Shown here one piece after another: positions 1,031-43,706 of a stretch of DNA of 43,706 nt (the first letter of the stretch is position 1; each line of letters begins with the position of its first letter). The notes below the pieces were generated by a model. The model made no database searches, was not told the origin of the DNA, and saw only the letters and a program-made list of their open reading frames with translations. The position numbers were made by a program, and so were the translations under genes. The DNA lies in the IMG/VR virus record IMGVR_UViG_3300049792_000050, positions 1-43,706 of that record, one strand, 5' to 3'. The stretch is from a virus (taxonomy: Duplodnaviria > Caudoviricetes).

Positions 1031-1176
1031 CCTCCGAGCGCACGTCGCTCTGGGCGTGGCGCGGCGCCGGCGCGGCGGCCCTGCTCCTGATCTGGATGCT
1101 CCTGGTCCAGCCGTTCGCGGCCGCGGTGTTTCGGGAGATCTCAGCGGAGTTCTCCACCGAGGATCGAGAGCCATGA
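1027..1176 (+). CDS. Small single-TM membrane protein (49 aa)
   Basis: GTGA/ATGA couplings on both sides; hydrophobic stretch AAALLLIWMLLVQPFAAAVF. Confidence 0.55.
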   Translation: MTSERTSLWAWRGAGAAALLLIWMLLVQPFAAAVFREISAEFSTEDREP

Positions 1177-1367
1177 GCGCGCACCTCGAGGATGACGAGC
1201 CGCTCTACGATCCAGACGACATGATGAAGCTGCTCAAGCTCAACACCAAGAAGCACCTCTACAAGCTGATTGAGCGCGGTCAAGCGCCCCCTTCCATCCG
1301 GATCGGCCGATCCGTAAGATTCGTCCCTCGCGACTACCGGGAGTGGCTGGAGAGCCGGAAAGGCTAA
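1173..1367 (+). CDS. xis: Excisionase / AlpA-like HTH recombination directionality factor
   Basis: 64 aa, MMKLLKLNTKKHLYKLIERGQAPPSIRIGRSVRF...WLE, typical of AlpA/Xis; directly upstream of the integrase. Confidence 0.8.
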   Translation: MSAHLEDDEPLYDPDDMMKLLKLNTKKHLYKLIERGQAPPSIRIGRSVRFVPRDYREWLESRKG

Positions 1368-1369
1368 CC

Positions 1370-2485
1370 ATGTCCAAACTCCCGAAAGGCATGATCAAGA
1401 AGCACAACTCCTACTACTCGAGGATCCGCGAGACGAAAGGAGGTCGACGGGGCGAGTCGACCGTCGCGCTCGGCGGCGACTACGGACTCGCGCTCGCGAA
1501 ACATCGCCAGCTCGAGCGCCGGCGGGAAGAGTGGCGCGGCCAGCCAACCGTGCGCGACTTCTCGAAAATCTGGCTCGCCGACTACGTGAGGTCGATGCGC
1601 ACCGGGAAGGGGCCGGCGCTCGCAGCGCAGCGTCTCAACGACTACGTGCTCCCTGTTCTTGGCGACATGGCCGTTCCCGAGGTGACCGAGGCGCACGGCA
1701 TGAAGCTGAGGGCGATGCTCGAGCGGCCGCACAAGCGTGCGCTGCCGAACGGGAAGGTGATCGAGACGGAGCTCTCCTCGCTCAGCGTTCGGCACGTTCT
1801 ATCGGACGCCCGCTGCCTGTTCGGGTTCGCGATCGCGGCGCGGCTGATCGACCGGAACCCGATCGTCGGCCGGGTCTTCCCCCGCATCCAGGAGGAGATC
1901 CCGGATCCGCTCTCGGATATCGAGCTCGGCCGCGTGCTGCAGGTGGTGCCGGAGCAGTACGAGCTGCTGGTCGGGCTCGCGCTGTGGACGGGGCTCAGAT
2001 ACAGCGAACTCCGCGGCCTCGCCTGGGAGAGGATCGAGCTCGCAGGCGATCCGCATCTGCTGGTCGTTCGATCGGGGCACGCGGAGTGGACGAAGAGCCG
2101 GCGCGCGCGCCGGGTTCCGGCGCTCCCCGAGGCCGTTCGCATCCTCGAGCACGCGCCGCGGACGTCGCCCTGGGTGTTCACCGGCAGGTTCGGCGAGATG
2201 ATCAGCGAGAAGCCAGGGCCATTCAACCGGGTGATCGCCGAGGACGTGCCCGGCTACCACTTCCACCGCCTGCGCCACACCTTCGCGAGCCGCTTCATTA
2301 GAGCGGGCGGGCAGCTTCCGATCCTCCAGCGAATCCTCGGCCACTCGTCGATCCGGACGACCGAGCGATACGTTCGGCTCTTCGACTCCGAGGTGTCCGC
2401 GCAGACGCGCGCGCTGCCCGCGGGATGGATGCCGGACATCGTGCTGGGGGAAGGAAGGGGGAAAATCGGGGGAAGCTCGATCTAG
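1370..2485 (+). CDS. int: Tyrosine recombinase (phage integrase)
   Basis: Catalytic residues in order: TGLRYSE (R), TKS (K), HRLRH (HxxR), LGH, TERY (Y). ATG lies 2 nt after the xis stop. Confidence 0.95.
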   Translation: MSKLPKGMIKKHNSYYSRIRETKGGRRGESTVALGGDYGLALAKHRQLERRREEWRGQPTVRDFSKIWLADYVRSMRTGKGPALAAQRLNDYVLPVLGDMAVPEVTEAHGMKLRAMLERPHKRALPNGKVIETELSSLSVRHVLSDARCLFGFAIAARLIDRNPIVGRVFPRIQEEIPDPLSDIELGRVLQVVPEQYELLVGLALWTGLRYSELRGLAWERIELAGDPHLLVVRSGHAEWTKSRRARRVPALPEAVRILEHAPRTSPWVFTGRFGEMISEKPGPFNRVIAEDVPGYHFHRLRHTFASRFIRAGGQLPILQRILGHSSIRTTERYVRLFDSEVSAQTRALPAGWMPDIVLGEGRGKIGGSSI

Positions 2486-2500
2486 GGCTCGATCTCTCGT

Positions 2501-2530
2501 TTGACGCAACGCGCTTCAATCCCGTAACTT
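2501..2530 (+). promoter_or_regulatory. Putative sigma70-type promoter for the tRNA-Cys 5' half
   Basis: TTGACG (2501-2506), 18 nt spacer, TAACTT (2525-2530), ending 10 nt before the first tRNA base. Confidence 0.55.
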
Positions 2531-2540
2531 GCAGACGCGA

Positions 2541-2584
2541 GGCGGCATAGCCAAGTGGCTAAGGCGACGGTCTGCAAAACCGTT
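2541..2584 (+). tRNA. 5' fragment of tRNA-Cys(GCA), serving as attP core; not a complete tRNA
   Basis: GGCGGCA-TA-GCCAAGTGGCTAAGGC (D arm)-G-ACGGT-CTGCAAA-ACCGT (anticodon arm, GCA). No T arm or 3' acceptor strand (TGCCGCC) follows. Confidence 0.88.
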
Positions 2585-2977
2585 CGGAGTCTCAACCATC
2601 GATCAGCCACAACCGGTGTCGCGACAACACAATTCGCGCCCGCTGGCGAAGTTAGCCGGCGGGCGCGAGTGGTTTGGACGTACTCACTGGCGACAATCTA
2701 TCCCCGTTGTCCCCAGCTTTCGGGGGAAGGTTCGGGGGAAGGTTGCGCGCCATGCGCGGCGTCCGCTACCATCCTCGCGTGCCGCGCCGCTGGTCCGCTC
2801 ACGCGGGCCGGCTCGTTGTGTCCAGGGCCCCTCTGAGGTCCTCCCGCACGCGCGCCGGTTGTCACCCCGCGGCCGGCACGATTCCATTGGCACCCGCCCT
2901 CTTGGCCGCCCCTTTTGCCGTCTGCTCCGGGCCTCAGACCACACCGACCCGTCCCCCGGATTGGGAGCACCATAGCC

Positions 2978-3295
2978 ATGCCTCAGGACGCTGCCAGTGC
3001 CCGAAAGTCGCTGCGCTCCTCCCGCCCCCCGTCGCACCTGGTTCGAACGATACGTGGCCGCCTCGAGGCCCTGGGGTGGCTCGTGGTGGTTTCCACGGCC
3101 GAGGGGCCATTCGAACTCATCGCATTGCCGTCCCGGCGAAGCCAGGAGGTGGTCGAAATCACGGCAGCTGCGCCGACCTGGCTGGGCGTCTCGCTGGGCG
3201 GCTGGGACGCCAGGCAGGAGATTCGCGACCTCGCCCTGGCCCATGGGGGAAGGGCATGCTTCGCGAGCGGCAACGGTAGTCAGCTTGAAAGCTAA
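2978..3295 (+). CDS. Hypothetical protein, weakly like Hjc-type PD-(D/E)XK resolvases (probably degenerate)
   Basis: GGAG upstream of ATG. LEALGWLVVVSTAEGPFELIAL resembles the Hjc N-terminal pattern, but no ExK is visible. Confidence 0.45.
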   Translation: MPQDAASARKSLRSSRPPSHLVRTIRGRLEALGWLVVVSTAEGPFELIALPSRRSQEVVEITAAAPTWLGVSLGGWDARQEIRDLALAHGGRACFASGNGSQLES

Positions 3296-3314
3296 GCCAT
3301 GTGTGGTTTAAGAT
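3285..3314 (+). promoter_or_regulatory. Putative promoter for the lipoprotein gene
   Basis: TTGAAA-N18-TAAGAT in a locally AT-rich stretch, followed by a GGAGGA RBS. Confidence 0.4.
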
Positions 3315-3342
3315 AGATCCCCGTTTCTAACTCGGAGGAACT

Positions 3343-3834
3343 ATGCGGCTTCTGGCATGCATCATTCTTGCAATTGCGGTCTCAGGCTGCGCGACGGCCG
3401 GGCGGCGTCCGGTCGGCAGAATGGCAACGTTCAATTTCTCGGAGTACTCGCCGTACGCGAGGGAGGGTACGGGCGTGCTCACCGGCCAGGCATTTCTGCG
3501 CACGCGTGGCGGCGATGTGAAGTATGCCGCCGGTCGCGAGGTAACCCTCAACCCGGTAACGGCATACTCGACCGAGTGGTACAACCGCGGCGTGATCGCG
3601 GGCAAGAATCTGGAAGAGGCCGACGCTCGCGCGACTCCGTATAACCGAGTATGCACCGCGGATGGCGAGGGCAGATTTCGATTCGAGAAGCTCCCGACGG
3701 GAGACTATTACGTGGTCTCGAGCGTCTTCTGGGAGATCCCCGGTGCGTGGGGGCTTCGGAGAACGGGTGGGAACGTATACGCGCAGGTGCACGTCACTGA
3801 GGGTCAGACGAACGAGCTCATCCTGACCCAGTAG
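3343..3834 (+). CDS. Lipoprotein with carboxypeptidase-regulatory-like (transthyretin/prealbumin-fold) domain
   Basis: Signal MRLLACIILAIAVSG|C with lipobox; ADGEGRFRFEKLPTGDYYV pattern; GGAGGA RBS; convergent with terL. Confidence 0.75.
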   Translation: MRLLACIILAIAVSGCATAGRRPVGRMATFNFSEYSPYAREGTGVLTGQAFLRTRGGDVKYAAGREVTLNPVTAYSTEWYNRGVIAGKNLEEADARATPYNRVCTADGEGRFRFEKLPTGDYYVVSSVFWEIPGAWGLRRTGGNVYAQVHVTEGQTNELILTQ

Positions 3835-3841
3835 TCGGCGG

Positions 3842-5788
3842 CTACTTCTTCCAGTTGTTGACCCACCCACCGCGCGGCCGCGGCCGCGGCGCCGGCGGCC
3901 GCGCGGCCTCCTCGAGCGCCCCGGCGACCTCGGGCGCGTCGCCGGCGTCGCCGGCCGGCGTCGCCGCGGCCGCGGCGAACCGGTCCGCGCGAGCCTTGAG
4001 CCCCTTGATCAGCGTCTGCCCGAGGATGTGGAGCGCGGCCAGCGCATAGACCTCGCAGTCGAGCGCCTCGTTCCGCTCGCGCTTCTTGACCCACGTACGG
4101 ATCGAGCCCTTGCCCTTCACGTATTTCCGGATCGCGGTCTCGGCCGTGAGCTGGGCTGCGTACTCGGGATCGACCCAGCTCGGGAAATGCATGTAGCCCG
4201 GCCCCTTGTCCTTGATCCGGAGCCGCGCGTAGATCACCTCCTTGCAGGTGTCGGGGCTCACGGTGAAGAGCGGCAGACGGTAGCGATTGCCGAACGTGGG
4301 CTTGGAGACGATCTCGGTGCCGTGGGCGGATCCGCCGCGGACCGCGAACACGCGGCGGGCCCGGCGCGCGTAGCAGAACTGGTAGGCCTGGTTGGTTTCG
4401 AAGTTGGTGTCGACGCCCACGCACTCGATCTTCATGGTCTGGCCGCTCTCATGGGCGAACGTGTTCTTGAGGAACCGGTCGAGCTCGTACCAGGCGTCCG
4501 GCTGCCCGGTGTCGCGCTTCTCCCCGTAGAACTGCTGGTGCGCGATCAGCCAGCTCTCCTCGCCGGCGCCGTAGCCCTTGACCACGCACTCGATGCGGTC
4601 CGCCTGGACGTCGACGCCGGCGATCAGGATGCCGACGCCCGTGGGGACCTCGCCGCCGTAGGCCTCCGCGCGGCCCATCACCGACTCGGGCTCGACGTTC
4701 GACCCGGTTTCTTCCCAGGTCTCGCCGAGGCGCGTGTTGACGAACGTCTTGAGCTGGTAGGTGTCCTCCTTCGACGCGAGGAACATCGCGACGAGCTCGG
4801 GCCACGACTCCCATCCCAGCGGCGAGTACAGCGCCGACAGGTGAAAGCCGATCGTCCTCGGCTCCTGGGAGACCGCGGTCGGCTCCCACATCCCCTCGGC
4901 GAGCATCTTCGTCTTGTGGTGCTCCTCGATCAGCTCGCTGCAGCCCGAGCACTTGAGCCGCGCCGTGAACGGATCCCGGTTCTCGAACACGATGTAGTGG
5001 TGGCGCCCCTCCTTGCCGTACCAGCCGCCGGCGCTCCACTGGATCCAGTCGAGCGTTCCGCAGTATGGGCAGGGAACCACATAGCGTCGTTGGTCCGTCT
5101 GGAGGTAGGCCTTCTCGATCCGCGACACGTTCCGCACGGTCGGGCTCGAGCACATGAAGATCTTGCGATCGGGGAACGTCGACGTCCGCGCCTCGGCCAG
5201 GGAGACCGGGTCACCCTCGGTTCCGACCTCGGCCGGGTAGCGGTCGGGCTCATCCAGGAACAGGTTCTTGATCGGCATCGAGCTGAGGCCTGCCGCCGAA
5301 TTCGCTCCGGTCATCAGGAGGATCCCGCCCTCGAAGTCCTTCGCGAACGTCGTGTTTCCCGAGTCGCGCGATCGCGCGGACTTCACGCGCGAGGTGAGCC
5401 GCGGCGAGACGTTGATCATGGGCGTGATGCGCTGTTTGCTCACGCGGCGCGCGATGTCGACAGTGGGCAGCACCATCAGCATCGGGCCAGGCGCGACATC
5501 GATCGTGTGCCCGACCCAGTTGTTGCCGCACTCGGTGGCGCCGATCTGGGTGCCCTTCTGGAGCACGATCCGCTCGTAGGGGCTGCCGGGCGTCAGTGCA
5601 TCCATGATCTCGCGCAGGTAGGGCGTGCGATCGGTGCGCCAGGGGCCGCGGCTCGAGGACGACTTACTCGAGAGGATCCGGTGGAGATCGGCCCACTGGC
5701 TCACCGTGAGCTTGGGATCGGGGCGGATCCCGGCTGCCCAGGCCTCGCGAACGATCCGCCTGGCGTCGGCGAGCTCGAGCTCACCCAT
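3842..5788 (-). CDS. terL: Terminase large subunit, lambda gpA family
   Basis: LTVSQWAD, WRTDRTPYLREIMD, Walker A-like KGTQIGATE, Walker B LFLDEPD, SSPT, CPYCG, FVNTRLGETW, GVDVQ, RNEALDC. Confidence 0.95.
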   Translation of the reverse strand: MGELELADARRIVREAWAAGIRPDPKLTVSQWADLHRILSSKSSSSRGPWRTDRTPYLREIMDALTPGSPYERIVLQKGTQIGATECGNNWVGHTIDVAPGPMLMVLPTVDIARRVSKQRITPMINVSPRLTSRVKSARSRDSGNTTFAKDFEGGILLMTGANSAAGLSSMPIKNLFLDEPDRYPAEVGTEGDPVSLAEARTSTFPDRKIFMCSSPTVRNVSRIEKAYLQTDQRRYVVPCPYCGTLDWIQWSAGGWYGKEGRHHYIVFENRDPFTARLKCSGCSELIEEHHKTKMLAEGMWEPTAVSQEPRTIGFHLSALYSPLGWESWPELVAMFLASKEDTYQLKTFVNTRLGETWEETGSNVEPESVMGRAEAYGGEVPTGVGILIAGVDVQADRIECVVKGYGAGEESWLIAHQQFYGEKRDTGQPDAWYELDRFLKNTFAHESGQTMKIECVGVDTNFETNQAYQFCYARRARRVFAVRGGSAHGTEIVSKPTFGNRYRLPLFTVSPDTCKEVIYARLRIKDKGPGYMHFPSWVDPEYAAQLTAETAIRKYVKGKGSIRTWVKKRERNEALDCEVYALAALHILGQTLIKGLKARADRFAAAAATPAGDAGDAPEVAGALEEAARPPAPRPRPRGGWVNNWKK

Positions 5789-38751: not shown

Positions 38752-38976
38752 CGCGCCCGGTAGCCCGGCCTGGTCGCTCGCAGTCGCAGGTCCGCCGCGA
38801 CTGGAGCCGGAGCCGGGCGCGTAAGGAAAGAGGCCGCGGTGAGCGGGGTGCTGCTGGCGTTCCTTTCGACCCCGCGCAAGGAGGCAGTCGAGCTGGCGCG
38901 CGGTCTGAGGGCGCCAACCCTCGGTGGTCCATCCTGCCGCGGCCTCGATTCGCGCAGTCCACCGGAGGGATCCCAC

Positions 38977-40683
38977 GTGAGCCTCGAGATCGAGACTGAA
39001 GACTTTCCCGGCACGATCAGCCTGATGATCAGCGTCGACGCGATCGTGCGCGGCGGCTACAACCCGAACGGCCGAATCGAGGGACCGGAGTACGACGAGT
39101 TCCGCGAGGACGTGCGCAAGCGCGGGGTGCTCCAGGCCGTGCTCGTTCGGCCGGCGACCGACGCCGAGAAGCGCGGGCTGCTCAATGCCATGTCCGTTCG
39201 GCTGGAGACTGACGCCGAGAAGCCCGAGGGCGACGCCTACTTTCTGATCGCCGGCCACCGCCGCGTCCAGGCCGCGATCGACACCATGATCGACAGGATC
39301 CCTGCGGTCGTGATCGCCTCGGACCCCAAGTCCGATGACGAGCTGCGCCTGATCGAGAACATCCACCGCGCCGACCTCGACCCGCTGGTCGAGGCCGAGG
39401 TCTACAGCGCGATGATCAAGACGTTCGGCGCCGATGGGCCCGAGGAGATCGCGACCCGCGTCGGCAAGCCCGCCGGGCACGTGCGCCGGCGGCTAGACCT
39501 CCTGCGCGTCTCGAAGAAGGTGCTCGACGCGGTCCGCGCCGGCGAACTGCAGCTGCGCGTCGCCGAGCTCGTGGGGTCGATCAGCAACGACAAGCTGCGC
39601 GCGAGCGCGTGCGAGGAGGCGATCGGGAGCCGCTGGAACGGCCCGGTCTCCGTGGCCGTGATGCGGCGCTGGATCGCGCAGAACGCCGGGCGCGCGCTCT
39701 CAGACGCCCCGTGGGACGTCACCGACGAGCAGCTCTACCAGGGCGATCCCTGCAAGGGCTCCTGCCGCCACTGCCCGTTCAACACCCAGAACCAGGGCGA
39801 GCTCTTCGGCGACGTCGGCAAGGAGGCCGCGTGCATGAACGCGGCGGGCTGGGCGGCGAAGTCGAAGGCGTTCTTCGATAAGAGGAGCGCCGAGGTCAAG
39901 GCCGCCGGCGGCGCCGTGCTCTCGAGCGTTGAGGCGAAGGCGCTCGCGCGCGGGAAGAGCGCGGGCCGCTACGCCGAGGTACGGGCGATCTGCCACCAGG
40001 ACTCGAGATACCGGACGTTCGGCGAGCTCGCGGGCAAGGATCTTGGCGTGCGCGCGATCGGATTCGCCGACGGCGAGATCGTGGAGGCCGTCGACGGTAA
40101 GGCGGTGCTCGCGTCCGCGAAGGAGCGCGGGATCAAGCTCTCGAGCCCGCACCCCTCGAGTGCGCGGCACAGCGTGGCCGAGAAGAAGCAACGCGCGAAT
40201 AGCCAGCGCGTGCGGTCCACGGTCGCGATCGCCATGGAGAAGATCGTCGAGAAGGCCGAACACGTGGCCCTCTCCCCGAAGTGGGTGCTCGAGCAGCTCA
40301 CGCGCGAGGCGTCCTCGGAGCAGGCGCGGACGCTGTGCATCCGCCGCGGCTGGGTGCCCGAGAAGAAGGAAGCCAAGGGCATGGGCGGATGGTCGCCGCG
40401 CGACGTCGTTCAGAAGCGCGGGTTCGAGCTCACCGACTCCCAGGCCCAGGGCGCGATCGTCGAGATCCTCGCGACGCCGCCCTATCCCGGGAACACCACC
40501 GGGATCGAGTCCGCCTGCAGCCAGTACGGCGTGAGCTGGGCGAAGCTGCTCGAGAGCGCCGAGAAGGGCGGTAGCGAGAGGAAGGCGGCGAAGAAGGGCA
40601 CGACGGCGAAGGCGAAGCGCACGAAGCGCGTCCCGCGAAAGACCCTCATCAAGAAGCGCGCGAAGAAAGGACGGCGCCGCTGA
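38977..40683 (+). CDS. ParB/RepB/Spo0J-family protein
   Basis: GGAGG-GTG start; GVLQAVLVRP, LIAGHRRVQAA, LIENIHRADLDPLVEAE, HTH EEIATRVGKPAGHVRRRL, CRHCPFNT. Confidence 0.85.
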   Translation: MSLEIETEDFPGTISLMISVDAIVRGGYNPNGRIEGPEYDEFREDVRKRGVLQAVLVRPATDAEKRGLLNAMSVRLETDAEKPEGDAYFLIAGHRRVQAAIDTMIDRIPAVVIASDPKSDDELRLIENIHRADLDPLVEAEVYSAMIKTFGADGPEEIATRVGKPAGHVRRRLDLLRVSKKVLDAVRAGELQLRVAELVGSISNDKLRASACEEAIGSRWNGPVSVAVMRRWIAQNAGRALSDAPWDVTDEQLYQGDPCKGSCRHCPFNTQNQGELFGDVGKEAACMNAAGWAAKSKAFFDKRSAEVKAAGGAVLSSVEAKALARGKSAGRYAEVRAICHQDSRYRTFGELAGKDLGVRAIGFADGEIVEAVDGKAVLASAKERGIKLSSPHPSSARHSVAEKKQRANSQRVRSTVAIAMEKIVEKAEHVALSPKWVLEQLTREASSEQARTLCIRRGWVPEKKEAKGMGGWSPRDVVQKRGFELTDSQAQGAIVEILATPPYPGNTTGIESACSQYGVSWAKLLESAEKGGSERKAAKKGTTAKAKRTKRVPRKTLIKKRAKKGRRR

Positions 40684-42452: not shown

Positions 42453-42698
42453 ATGAACAAGCCAAAACCACGCACGCGTTTGCAGATGAACAAGGAGAGG
42501 GTCGCTGCCGTGCTGGGCTGTCACGCGGATGAGGCCATCATCACCTATCCCGTCGCAACCTACTCGGTCGGGCAGGCTCATCCGAAGGATCGGAGACGAG
42601 GCCACCCGGGGATGATTCCTCCTACCGGTACCGGCGCGACCCTTAAGGAAGCAATCGCCGATCTTCGGCGCAAAATCGGCGGCGGCAGCAGAGCATGA
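42453..42698 (+). CDS. Hypothetical protein (81 aa)
   Basis: GGAGG RBS; GTGATLKEAIADL C-terminus; coupled to the ATPase. Confidence 0.6.
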   Translation: MNKPKPRTRLQMNKERVAAVLGCHADEAIITYPVATYSVGQAHPKDRRRGHPGMIPPTGTGATLKEAIADLRRKIGGGSRA

Positions 42699-43706
42699 GC
42701 CAGGCAAAGCTCCACCTCGCACCCGGCCTCGACCTCCCCGCCGACGTCGTCACCCAGGCGATCGCGATCCTCGCTCGCCGCGGCGCCGGCAAGTCCTACA
42801 CCGCGTCCGTCCTGGTCGAGGAGGTCGTCAAGGCCGGCCTGCCGGTCGTCGTGATCGACCCGACCGGAGCCTGGTACGGCCTGCGCACGTCGGCCGACGG
42901 AAAGCGGCCGGGCCTCTCGGTCCTGATCCTCGGAGGACCTCACGGCGACGTCCAGATCAAGGAGACTGCCGGGCGCGAGATCGCCGACCTGGTCGTCGAC
43001 TACCCGGGCGCGTACGTGATCGACCTGTCCTCGTTCGACACCAAGGCGAGCGAGCTCAGGTTCGTCGCTGACTTCCTCGAGCGCCTCTACCGCGCGAAGG
43101 GGACGAAGAAGAACGCCATGCTGCTCGTGGTCGACGAGGCCGACACGTTCGCTCCCCAAAGCACGCGCGCCGAGGGTGGGCCGATCCTGCGCACCCTGGG
43201 CGCGCTCGAGGCGATCGCGAGCCGCGGACGGATTCGCGGGTTCGGGCTCCTCCTGGTGACCCAGCGGTCCGCGAAGCTCCACAAGAACGTGCTCGCCCAG
43301 ACCGAGATCCTGATCGCGCTCCAGACGACTGACCCGCGCGATCGCGCGGCGATCAAGGCGTGGGTTGAGGGCAATGGCACGCCCGAGGAGCAGGCGCAGG
43401 TGCTCGGCTCGCTCGCCTCGCTCGAGCGTGGCGAGGCCTGGGTCTGGAGCCCGAGCTGGCTCCGGCTCCTCAAGCGCGTTCGGATCCGCAAGCGCGAGAC
43501 CTACGACAGCGGGCAGACGCCCGAGGTCGGGAGGGCCGTCCTGGCGCCCACCGCGCGCGCGACCGTCGACCTGGCTGCGCTCGAGGCGCGCATCGCCGCC
43601 AGCGTCGAGCAGGCGAAGGCGAACGACCCGAATGTGCTGAAAAGCCGCTTATCGACTCTCGAGAAGGAGCTCGCGGCCGCGCGCGCCGCGAAGCCGCCGG
43701 GGGCGG
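42695..43706 (+). CDS. N-terminal part of HerA/DUF87-like P-loop ATPase (missing from the ORF track; continues at 1-845)
   Basis: Translation from ATG 42695: AILARRGAGKSYT (Walker A), VVIDPTGAWYGL, LLVVDEADTFAPQ (Walker B), RGRIRGFGLLLVTQRSAKL. Confidence 0.88.
   Translation, partial: MSQAKLHLAPGLDLPADVVTQAIAILARRGAGKSYTASVLVEEVVKAGLPVVVIDPTGAWYGLRTSADGKRPGLSVLILGGPHGDVQIKETAGREIADLVVDYPGAYVIDLSSFDTKASELRFVADFLERLYRAKGTKKNAMLLVVDEADTFAPQSTRAEGGPILRTLGALEAIASRGRIRGFGLLLVTQRSAKLHKNVLAQTEILIALQTTDPRDRAAIKAWVEGNGTPEEQAQVLGSLASLERGEAWVWSPSWLRLLKRVRIRKRETYDSGQTPEVGRAVLAPTARATVDLAALEARIAASVEQAKANDPNVLKSRLSTLEKELAAARAAKPPGA
43575..43700 (+). repeat. Terminal direct repeat, right copy
   Basis: Identical to 1-126; the final 6 nt of the window (GGGCGG) differ from 127-132 (TGCCGG). 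Confidence 0.95.

What the first reader, a model, noticed from the sequence alone, without database searches (positions are those of the whole stretch)
2501..2584. attP carries the 5' half of tRNA-Cys plus a promoter: the prophage would take over transcription of a host tRNA
Seen: a 44-nt tRNA-Cys(GCA) piece (acceptor 5' strand, D arm, anticodon arm) with no 3' half, preceded by TTGACG-N18-TAACTT, downstream of int. Established: tRNA-targeting integrases usually carry the 3' part of the tRNA, leaving the host promoter in charge, and tRNA-Cys is often single-copy. Inference: crossover near the anticodon loop would rebuild the tRNA from phage 5' half and host 3' half under a phage promoter. An essential tRNA, and any co-transcribed downstream tRNAs, would then depend on prophage DNA.
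Basis: partly seen in the sequence, partly recalled or inferred. Interest (0 to 1): 0.8.

Follow-up and report, generated by a model that had tools for sequence, protein, structure and literature searches.

The report
Reverse-polarity phage attachment site in tRNA-Cys
This soil phage carries the front half of a bacterial cysteine tRNA gene behind a promoter-like sequence, so inserting into its likely host would rebuild that tRNA on phage DNA; the arrangement is known and rare in general but common among relatives of its integrase.

Summary
Confirmed. The window is a circular temperate phage. 2541-2584 is the first 44 nt of tRNA-Cys(GCA); no 3' half was found in the contig. It lies 55 nt after an intact tyrosine integrase, between two clusters of arm-like repeats. 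TTGACG-18-TAACTT ends 10 nt before the tRNA, in register with host tRNA-Cys promoter-like sites. The host is likely Ca. Eisenbacteria. No integrated copy of this phage was found. Related integrases show the predicted product in 10 genomes: displaced 5' half, island, integrase, promoter region, full tRNA. The halves stop at or just after the anticodon loop. This is the known reversed type (Islander: 159 of 3919 islands; archaeal pTN3). 'Takeover' is overstated: the promoter resembles the host's own, and excision would restore the gene. Downstream tRNAs are rare at tRNA-Cys (6 of 84 loci). What looks new is the scale: 40 of 57 classifiable genome integrases of this family have the reversed layout, and stacks of promoter plus 5'-half repeats occur. 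The scan has reported 5'-half attPs and such stacks before on other DNA. Transcription is untested.

The parts
1173..1367 (+). excisionase-like HTH protein (likely directionality factor)
   Evidence: PF12728 HTH_17 E 1.5e-7; phrog_66 excisionase
1370..2485 (+). tyrosine integrase, 371 aa, uninterrupted, catalytic R210 K242 H299 R302 H325 Y334 present
   Evidence: PF00589; conserved columns of alignment A1; role of the residues from established knowledge
2446..2475 (+). three GGGGGAA repeats inside the 3' end of int: likely arm-type Int sites (P arm)
   Evidence: repeat family D1; 5 of the 8 GGGGGAA in the phage lie at 2446-2740; similar GGGGAAC repeats at the same place behind the closest genome integrase
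2501..2506 (+). -35-like hexamer TTGACG
   Evidence: sequence; one base upstream of the TTG of host tRNA-Cys promoter-like sites in a gapless alignment
2525..2530 (+). -10-like hexamer TAACTT
   Evidence: T, A and last T are invariant columns in 8 aligned sequences; ends 10 nt before the tRNA as in 10 listed host or element copies
2531..2540 (+). 10-nt GC-rich leader, 8 of 10 identical to the leader of the native-looking copies in L289 and L292
2541..2584 (+). 5' half of tRNA-Cys(GCA) = attP identity block; anticodon loop 2572-2578 is the likely 7-bp overlap
   Evidence: exact match to 90 GTDB loci; displaced halves in relatives stop at or just after the loop
2622..2680 (.). strong inverted repeat (16-bp stem 2632-2670), terminator-like; would face the host promoter after integration
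   Evidence: I1; fold z -3.8 for 2537-2680; terminator-like hit on the - strand 2650-2633
2722..2741 (+). two GGGGGAAG repeats: likely arm-type Int sites (P' arm)
   Evidence: 147 and 159 nt from the loop centre
43575..43700 (+). 126-nt repeat of bases 1-126: the contig is circular, so the site is in its free (attP) state

Best explanation
This is the likely attachment site (attP) of a temperate phage, probably of Ca. Eisenbacteria, built the reverse way round: it carries the 5' half of tRNA-Cys and a host-like promoter sequence, so integration at the anticodon loop would rebuild the tRNA behind the integrase, on a predicted phage-borne promoter. Shown: the sequence anatomy, exact identity to host tRNA-Cys, and the integrated layout in relatives. 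Inferred: Int binds the GGGGGAA arm repeats and the anticodon stem and exchanges strands across the 7-nt loop. One junction then reads host promoter, host 5' half, phage hairpin. The other reads int, arm sites, phage promoter, phage 5' half, host 3' half. The promoter acts as a like-for-like replacement; excision restores the host gene.
For: Circular phage with terminase, capsid, tail, int and xis-like genes. Exact match to 90 tRNA-Cys loci, identity ending at 2584. Arm-like repeats on both sides. Integrated layout with a displaced 5' half upstream on the same contig and a full tRNA just after a family integrase in 10 genomes: G001, G057 (Cys); G082, G120, G126, G134, G139 (Ser-CGA); G041, G052, G096 (Arg-CCT). 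The closest genome integrase (57% over residues 135-364, G073) is followed by arm-like repeats, TTGCAG..TAGCGT and a full tRNA-Ser(GCT) and groups with the window's integrase at SH-aLRT 100 in a quick tree. Promoter core upstream of 44 of 76 stand-alone tRNA-Cys 5' ends, against a shuffled mean of 0.8 and 0 of 42 copies that follow tRNA-Gly. Host: integrase hits in 38 of 206 genomes of the phylum of G001 at E<=1e-35, against 3 of 201, 0 of 251 and 0 of 201 in three other phyla sharing the tRNA piece at E<=1e-25.
Against: No integrated copy of this phage: the one run holding it gave a single contig through the site with no joint or loose end, and may be its source. The nine closest integrases (49-83% identity) could not be placed in DNA, and the nearest one with context targets tRNA-Ser, not Cys. 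The promoter is 8 of 12 and missed by the scanner. Across all 43 reversed-layout loci a strict core was found in only 4, against 0 of 12 controls. The same integrase family also carries the usual 3' half of tRNA-Cys in 6 loci. The 76 promoter sequences include relatives and several copies per genome.
Confidence: 0.8

Rival explanations
1. Same attP and crossover, but the rebuilt tRNA is made by read-through from the xis-int transcript (as described for archaeal pTN3); the hexamers are a worn copy of host DNA or an accessory-protein site.
For: No terminator-like site between the int stop (2485) and the tRNA. Several Arg-CCT relatives have a full tRNA 21-30 nt after int with no TTG..TA..T core (L236, L352, L355). 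An A/T-rich motif resembling an IHF site (consensus recalled) overlaps the spacer in relatives.
Against: TTG and TA..T keep their register with native promoter-like sites while the spacer has diverged. A repressed int would be a poor source for an essential tRNA (inference).
Confidence: 0.1
2. A true regulatory takeover or addiction device: the prophage controls tRNA-Cys supply, so the host cannot lose or silence it.
For: One full tRNA-Cys per genome in most genomes examined (G156 has two). Promoter and arm repeats persist in front of tRNA-Cys where the integrase is a fragment or not detected (L111, L167). Arm sites lie 25-55 nt upstream of the -35.
Against: The promoter looks like the host's. 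Precise excision restores the gene, and only about 50 bp of phage DNA would be needed (inference). No operator was identified.
Confidence: 0.06
3. The piece is not a working att core but a leftover, or a small decoy RNA (D arm plus anticodon arm, ended by the hairpin) made by the free phage.
For: Promoter, 5' half and hairpin could give an RNA of about 135 nt. No integrated copy seen.
Against: Intact int, xis-like gene, arm repeats on both sides and perfect identity to host tRNAs fit an active attP. In the predicted fold the tRNA arms are not retained.
Confidence: 0.04

Closest known systems
Genomic islands with a 5' tDNA fragment (Islander, PMC4383910, Table 1: 159 of 3919; Zhao and Williams 2002, J Bacteriol 184:859, title seen in reference lists only)
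   Same: Tyrosine integrase, tRNA target, element carries the 5' part, anticodon-centred site, tRNA restored on the element side.
   Different: Here a complete tailed phage in its free form; in this integrase family the reversed layout is the majority among loci examined (40 of 57) rather than 4%, though the two counts are not like for like.
Archaeal pTN3-like integrases (Badel 2021 PMC8371274; Cossu 2017 PMC5495485; passages read)
   Same: att site is the 5' half of a tRNA gene; the rebuilt tRNA is separated from its original promoter.
   Different: In pTN3 attP lies inside the integrase gene, which is split, and the tRNA uses the integrase promoter. Here int ends 55 nt before the site, stays whole, and a separate promoter-like site is present.
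tRNA-dependent lysogeny (Guerrero-Bustamante and Hatfull 2024, PMC10865867; first of 8 parts and passages read)
   Same: The lysogen's supply of an essential tRNA depends on phage DNA and a phage promoter.
   Different: There the core is about 10 bp, the host tRNA is not rebuilt and the phage encodes a whole tRNA. Here the core is 44 bp, the tRNA would be rebuilt, and no whole tRNA was found in the phage.
Tandem islands separated by partial tRNAs (tycheposons, bioRxiv 10.1101/2020.12.28.424599; passages read)
   Same: Serial integration at one tRNA leaves stacked partial copies and worn elements.
   Different: In the relatives here each partial copy is a 5' half, mostly with its own promoter-like site; the passages read do not mention promoters (0 occurrences).

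Membership tests
tRNA-targeting tyrosine-integrase attP, anticodon-loop class | intact tyrosine integrase beside the site | tested here: met
tRNA-targeting tyrosine-integrase attP, anticodon-loop class | identity block with a host tRNA that includes the anticodon stem-loop | tested here: met
   44 nt identical, ending just after the anticodon stem
tRNA-targeting tyrosine-integrase attP, anticodon-loop class | arm-type repeats on both sides of the core | tested here: met
   binding itself untested
tRNA-targeting tyrosine-integrase attP, anticodon-loop class | crossover inside the 7-nt loop for this integrase | tested here: inconclusive
   junctions of relatives stop at or just after the loop; no junction of this phage seen
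reverse-orientation (5'-fragment) tRNA islands | element carries the 5' part and not the 3' part | tested here: met
reverse-orientation (5'-fragment) tRNA islands | integrated form has a displaced 5' fragment upstream and the full tRNA downstream | tested here: inconclusive
   met in 10 genomes for related integrases; not seen for this phage
reverse-orientation (5'-fragment) tRNA islands | restored tRNA transcribed from element DNA | not testable with these tools
   no RNA holder listed; sequence comparison only
pTN3-like suicidal integrases | attP inside the integrase gene, which is split on integration | tested here: not met
   int stops at 2485, core starts at 2541
tRNA-dependent lysogeny | short core, no reconstruction, whole phage tRNA of the same isotype | tested here: not met
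   44-nt core; 0 tRNA genes by ARAGORN

The most novel reading that the evidence does not exclude
In Ca. Eisenbacteria one integrase family has made the rare reversed layout its main mode and flips between 5' and 3' halves repeatedly. Essential tRNA genes (Cys, Lys-TTT, a Ser-Ser-Arg cluster) there routinely run on mobile-element promoters, and serial insertion builds integron-like stacks of cargo cassettes, each ending in a promoter plus a tRNA 5' half. This phage is a free, mobile member of that system.
Probability: 0.45. Interest if true: 0.65.

Novelty: new member of a known kind. Interest (0 to 1): 0.42.

Why it matters
The textbook rule is that an element integrating in a tRNA gene brings the 3' part and leaves the host promoter in place. 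Exceptions are known but few. Here a whole phage, a likely host lineage and dozens of integrated relatives with both layouts are in hand. That makes it testable how polarity flips and whether an element-borne promoter is neutral, protects the element's end from deletion, or is regulated. It also warns that island finders looking only downstream of tRNAs will misplace islands in this phylum, and it gives a host assignment for an uncultured soil phage.

Tried and rejected
Exact 42-nt pattern in viral contigs: 0 matches. Sequencing runs: one DNA holder, possibly the source; no RNA holder listed; laying it showed no joint or loose end. The consensus promoter scanner missed the site. A strict promoter test over all reversed-layout loci was weak (4 of 43); it became informative only for tRNA-Cys copies. 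The tRNA piece alone does not name the host: it also matches Deltaproteobacteria, Krumholzibacteria, Armatimonadota and others. The careful tree did not finish; a quick tree was used, with rows under 200 aa left out. Of 13 genomes with an int-adjacent full tRNA checked had a displaced 5' half on the same contig, 3 had one on another contig (G088, G098, G156), 2 had none found (G091, G125) and in 1 the pattern did not match (G050). Williams 2002 and Zhao and Williams 2002 are not held. Rejected: a split or cryptic whole tRNA (no T arm or acceptor 3' strand); pTN3-type split integrase; tRNA-dependent lysogeny.

Full report
The window. It is a single 43.7-kb, 68% GC virus record with a 126-nt terminal repeat, hence circular. 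It encodes a gpA-type terminase, capsid, tape measure and tail proteins, an excisionase-like HTH protein at 1173-1367 and a tyrosine integrase at 1370-2485 whose catalytic residues are conserved columns of a 56-sequence alignment. The region after int is therefore an attachment site in its free state. One public run holds it, a soil metagenome that may be its source.

The observation. 2541-2584 is the 5' half of tRNA-Cys(GCA) through the anticodon stem. Its first 42 nt match 90 GTDB loci exactly; all continue into a host 3' half, 87 complete and 3 cut by contig ends, and identity with the phage ends at 2584. ARAGORN finds no tRNA in the phage and motif searches find no matching 3' half. GGGGGAA repeats lie 107-129 nt left and 147-159 nt right of the anticodon loop; these are 5 of the 8 copies in the phage. 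A 16-bp hairpin at 2632-2670 follows the half. TTGACG-18-TAACTT is as described.

Is the promoter real? It matches the sigma-70 consensus at 8 of 12 positions and the scanner did not list it. The comparative case is better. A TTG-N16..19-TAnnnT core precedes 44 of 76 distinct stand-alone tRNA-Cys 5' ends in the fetched loci (shuffled mean 0.8, maximum 3) and 0 of 42 that follow tRNA-Gly in a cluster; these sequences are not independent. In one Eisenbacteria group the -10 ends 10 nt before the tRNA, as in the phage. Three genomes with a shared upstream gene and no arm repeats carry what looks like the native version; the phage leader matches two of them (L289, L292) at 8 of 10. In a gapless alignment of 8 sequences the T, A and last T of the -10 are invariant while the spacer has diverged. 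Only 7 such cores exist in the phage. Against: over all 43 reversed-layout loci of the family a strict core was found in only 4. Ser-CGA copies carry a TTG..TAAACA-like variant, and several Arg-CCT copies show nothing within 60 nt. Transcription is inferred, not shown.

Host. The tRNA piece is shared by several phyla. The integrase narrows it: one homologue is named from Ca. Eisenbacteria; hits occur in 38 of 206 genomes of the phylum of G001 at E<=1e-35 but in 3 of 201, 0 of 251 and 0 of 201 sampled genomes of three other phyla sharing the piece, at E<=1e-25. Terminase relatives up to 62% identical occur in that phylum (19 of 206 genomes; no control phylum run). With the leader match, Ca. Eisenbacteria is the likely host.

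The integrated state in relatives. In G001 (L138) a 5' half at 412 ends at the anticodon loop, a 4.5-kb island follows, and a family integrase (35% identical) stops 43 nt before a full tRNA-Cys at 4915. The same layout on one contig was found in G057 (Cys), G082, G120, G126, G134, G139 (Ser-CGA) and G041, G052, G096 (Arg-CCT); 6 of the 13 genomes checked did not show it on one contig. The closest genome integrase (57%, G073) is followed by similar arm repeats, a promoter-like site and a full tRNA-Ser(GCT).

How common. I classified 94 distinct family integrases by the first tRNA-like sequence within 700 nt downstream: full tRNA on the same strand 33, 5' end on the same strand 10, 3' half on the same strand 12, 3' half opposite 8, full tRNA opposite 9, none 22. 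For the 77 from GTDB loci that is 40 reversed, 17 usual, 20 unassigned; within 210 nt it is 30 against 16; for the 16 viral loci it is 2 against 12 (one of the 2, L015, is a degenerate tRNA). Limits: these are the best-scoring hits I fetched (the 30 loci returned, 40 further regions and some earlier loci), not all hits; a full tRNA after int was counted as reversed though verified in only 10 genomes; related loci are not independent. Islander lists 159 of 3919 islands with a 5' fragment (PMC4383910, parts 1-2 of 3 read); the counts are not like for like. In a quick tree the two layouts are interspersed, also for tRNA-Cys (6 reversed, 6 usual), which suggests repeated flips, but 38 of 99 inner forks are unresolved. 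The main targets Cys, Ser and Arg-CCT share the anticodon stem RCGGT..ACCGY. A symmetric core would let either half be carried (inference).

Stacks. Several genomes hold 2-5 copies of the tRNA-Cys 5' half, mostly each behind its own promoter-like site, 1-11 kb apart. No family integrase was detected by tblastn in five such stretches (L304-L308) or in L232. 25 of 36 cargo ORFs had Pfam hits: kinases, two-component proteins, FG-GAP repeat proteins, transporters and enzymes. Serial integration at the restored tRNA explains them (inference).

Mechanism. Shown: anatomy, identity, and the product layout in relatives. Inferred: Int exchanges strands across the loop 2572-2578. The host promoter is left driving a 5' half that runs into the phage hairpin. 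The full tRNA is rebuilt behind int on the phage's host-like promoter, perhaps with int read-through, since no terminator-like site lies between. Most genomes examined hold one full tRNA-Cys (G156 has two), so the lysogen would need about 50 bp of phage DNA; excision would restore the gene. It does apply to relatives in front of Ser(TGA)-Ser(GCT)-Arg(ACG) (L262, L395).

Known or new. Badel 2021 (PMC8371274, passages) states that the recombinant bacterial tRNA gene keeps its promoter with very few exceptions, and that pTN3-like integrases use the 5' half and the integrase promoter. Cossu 2017 (passages) and PMC6563490 (passages) agree. Zhao and Williams 2002 was seen only as a title in reference lists; the lead came from earlier scan notes. 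Passages of PMC3861242, PMC13626063, PMC12540744 and PMC9897764 added nothing. Searches found no paper on Eisenbacteria phage integrases or on promoter-bearing 5'-half stacks; the library lacks most subscription journals, and the TIGER/Islander data tables were not inspected. The scan has reported similar sites in other phages and one such stack. Verdict: a real and well-supported new member of a known minority class. The added value is the family-wide prevalence and the host-like promoter. Interest 0.42.

Noticed in passing
G205:C1:1913874-1934313 (L304, L397, L408): Three tRNA-Cys 5' halves, then a distant integrase and a 3' half, but no full tRNA-Cys found in this 3.1-Mb contig by three pattern searches or by ARAGORN on 59 kb around it. 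Assembly artefact, divergent gene or a split tRNA.
   Followed up: partly
L304-L308, L232 (G205, G195, G177, G175, G181, G005): Stacks of promoter-like site plus tRNA-Cys 5' half with varied cargo and no family integrase detected; many copies share a conserved stretch after the half.
   Followed up: partly
L320 (G073:C264:2160-2470): Arm-like G-rich repeats on both sides of a full tRNA-Ser(GCT) behind the closest integrase: either two elements of opposite layout or an attP with a whole tRNA.
   Followed up: no
L262 (G141:C22) and L395 (G139:C1:3316922): Family integrase (whole in L262, a C-terminal piece in L395) directly upstream of a Ser(TGA)-Ser(GCT)-Arg(ACG) tRNA cluster, with no clear -35/-10 core in L262; L263 shows the same cluster broken by a 3'-type element.
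   Followed up: partly
window 2446-2485: The arm-like repeats lie inside the integrase reading frame; the encoded G/E/K-rich tail is conserved in the ten closest integrases.
   Followed up: partly
window 2978-3834: Two + strand ORFs between attP and the terminase; 3343-3834 (phrog_14789, looks like a lipoprotein) has the only scanner-listed promoter in 1800-3600 (3285-3314): a likely lysogen-expressed accessory gene.
   Followed up: no
window 42695-43706 and 1-845: An ORF runs across the circular junction; its start has a Walker A-like motif and it resembles a HerA-type ATPase by eye (not searched).
   Followed up: no
window 38839-40683: 614-aa ParB-like protein in an integrating phage.
   Followed up: no
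L001 (viral contig) 4187-4229: Another viral contig of the family with a 5' half, of tRNA-Ser(TGA), about 370 nt after int.
   Followed up: partly
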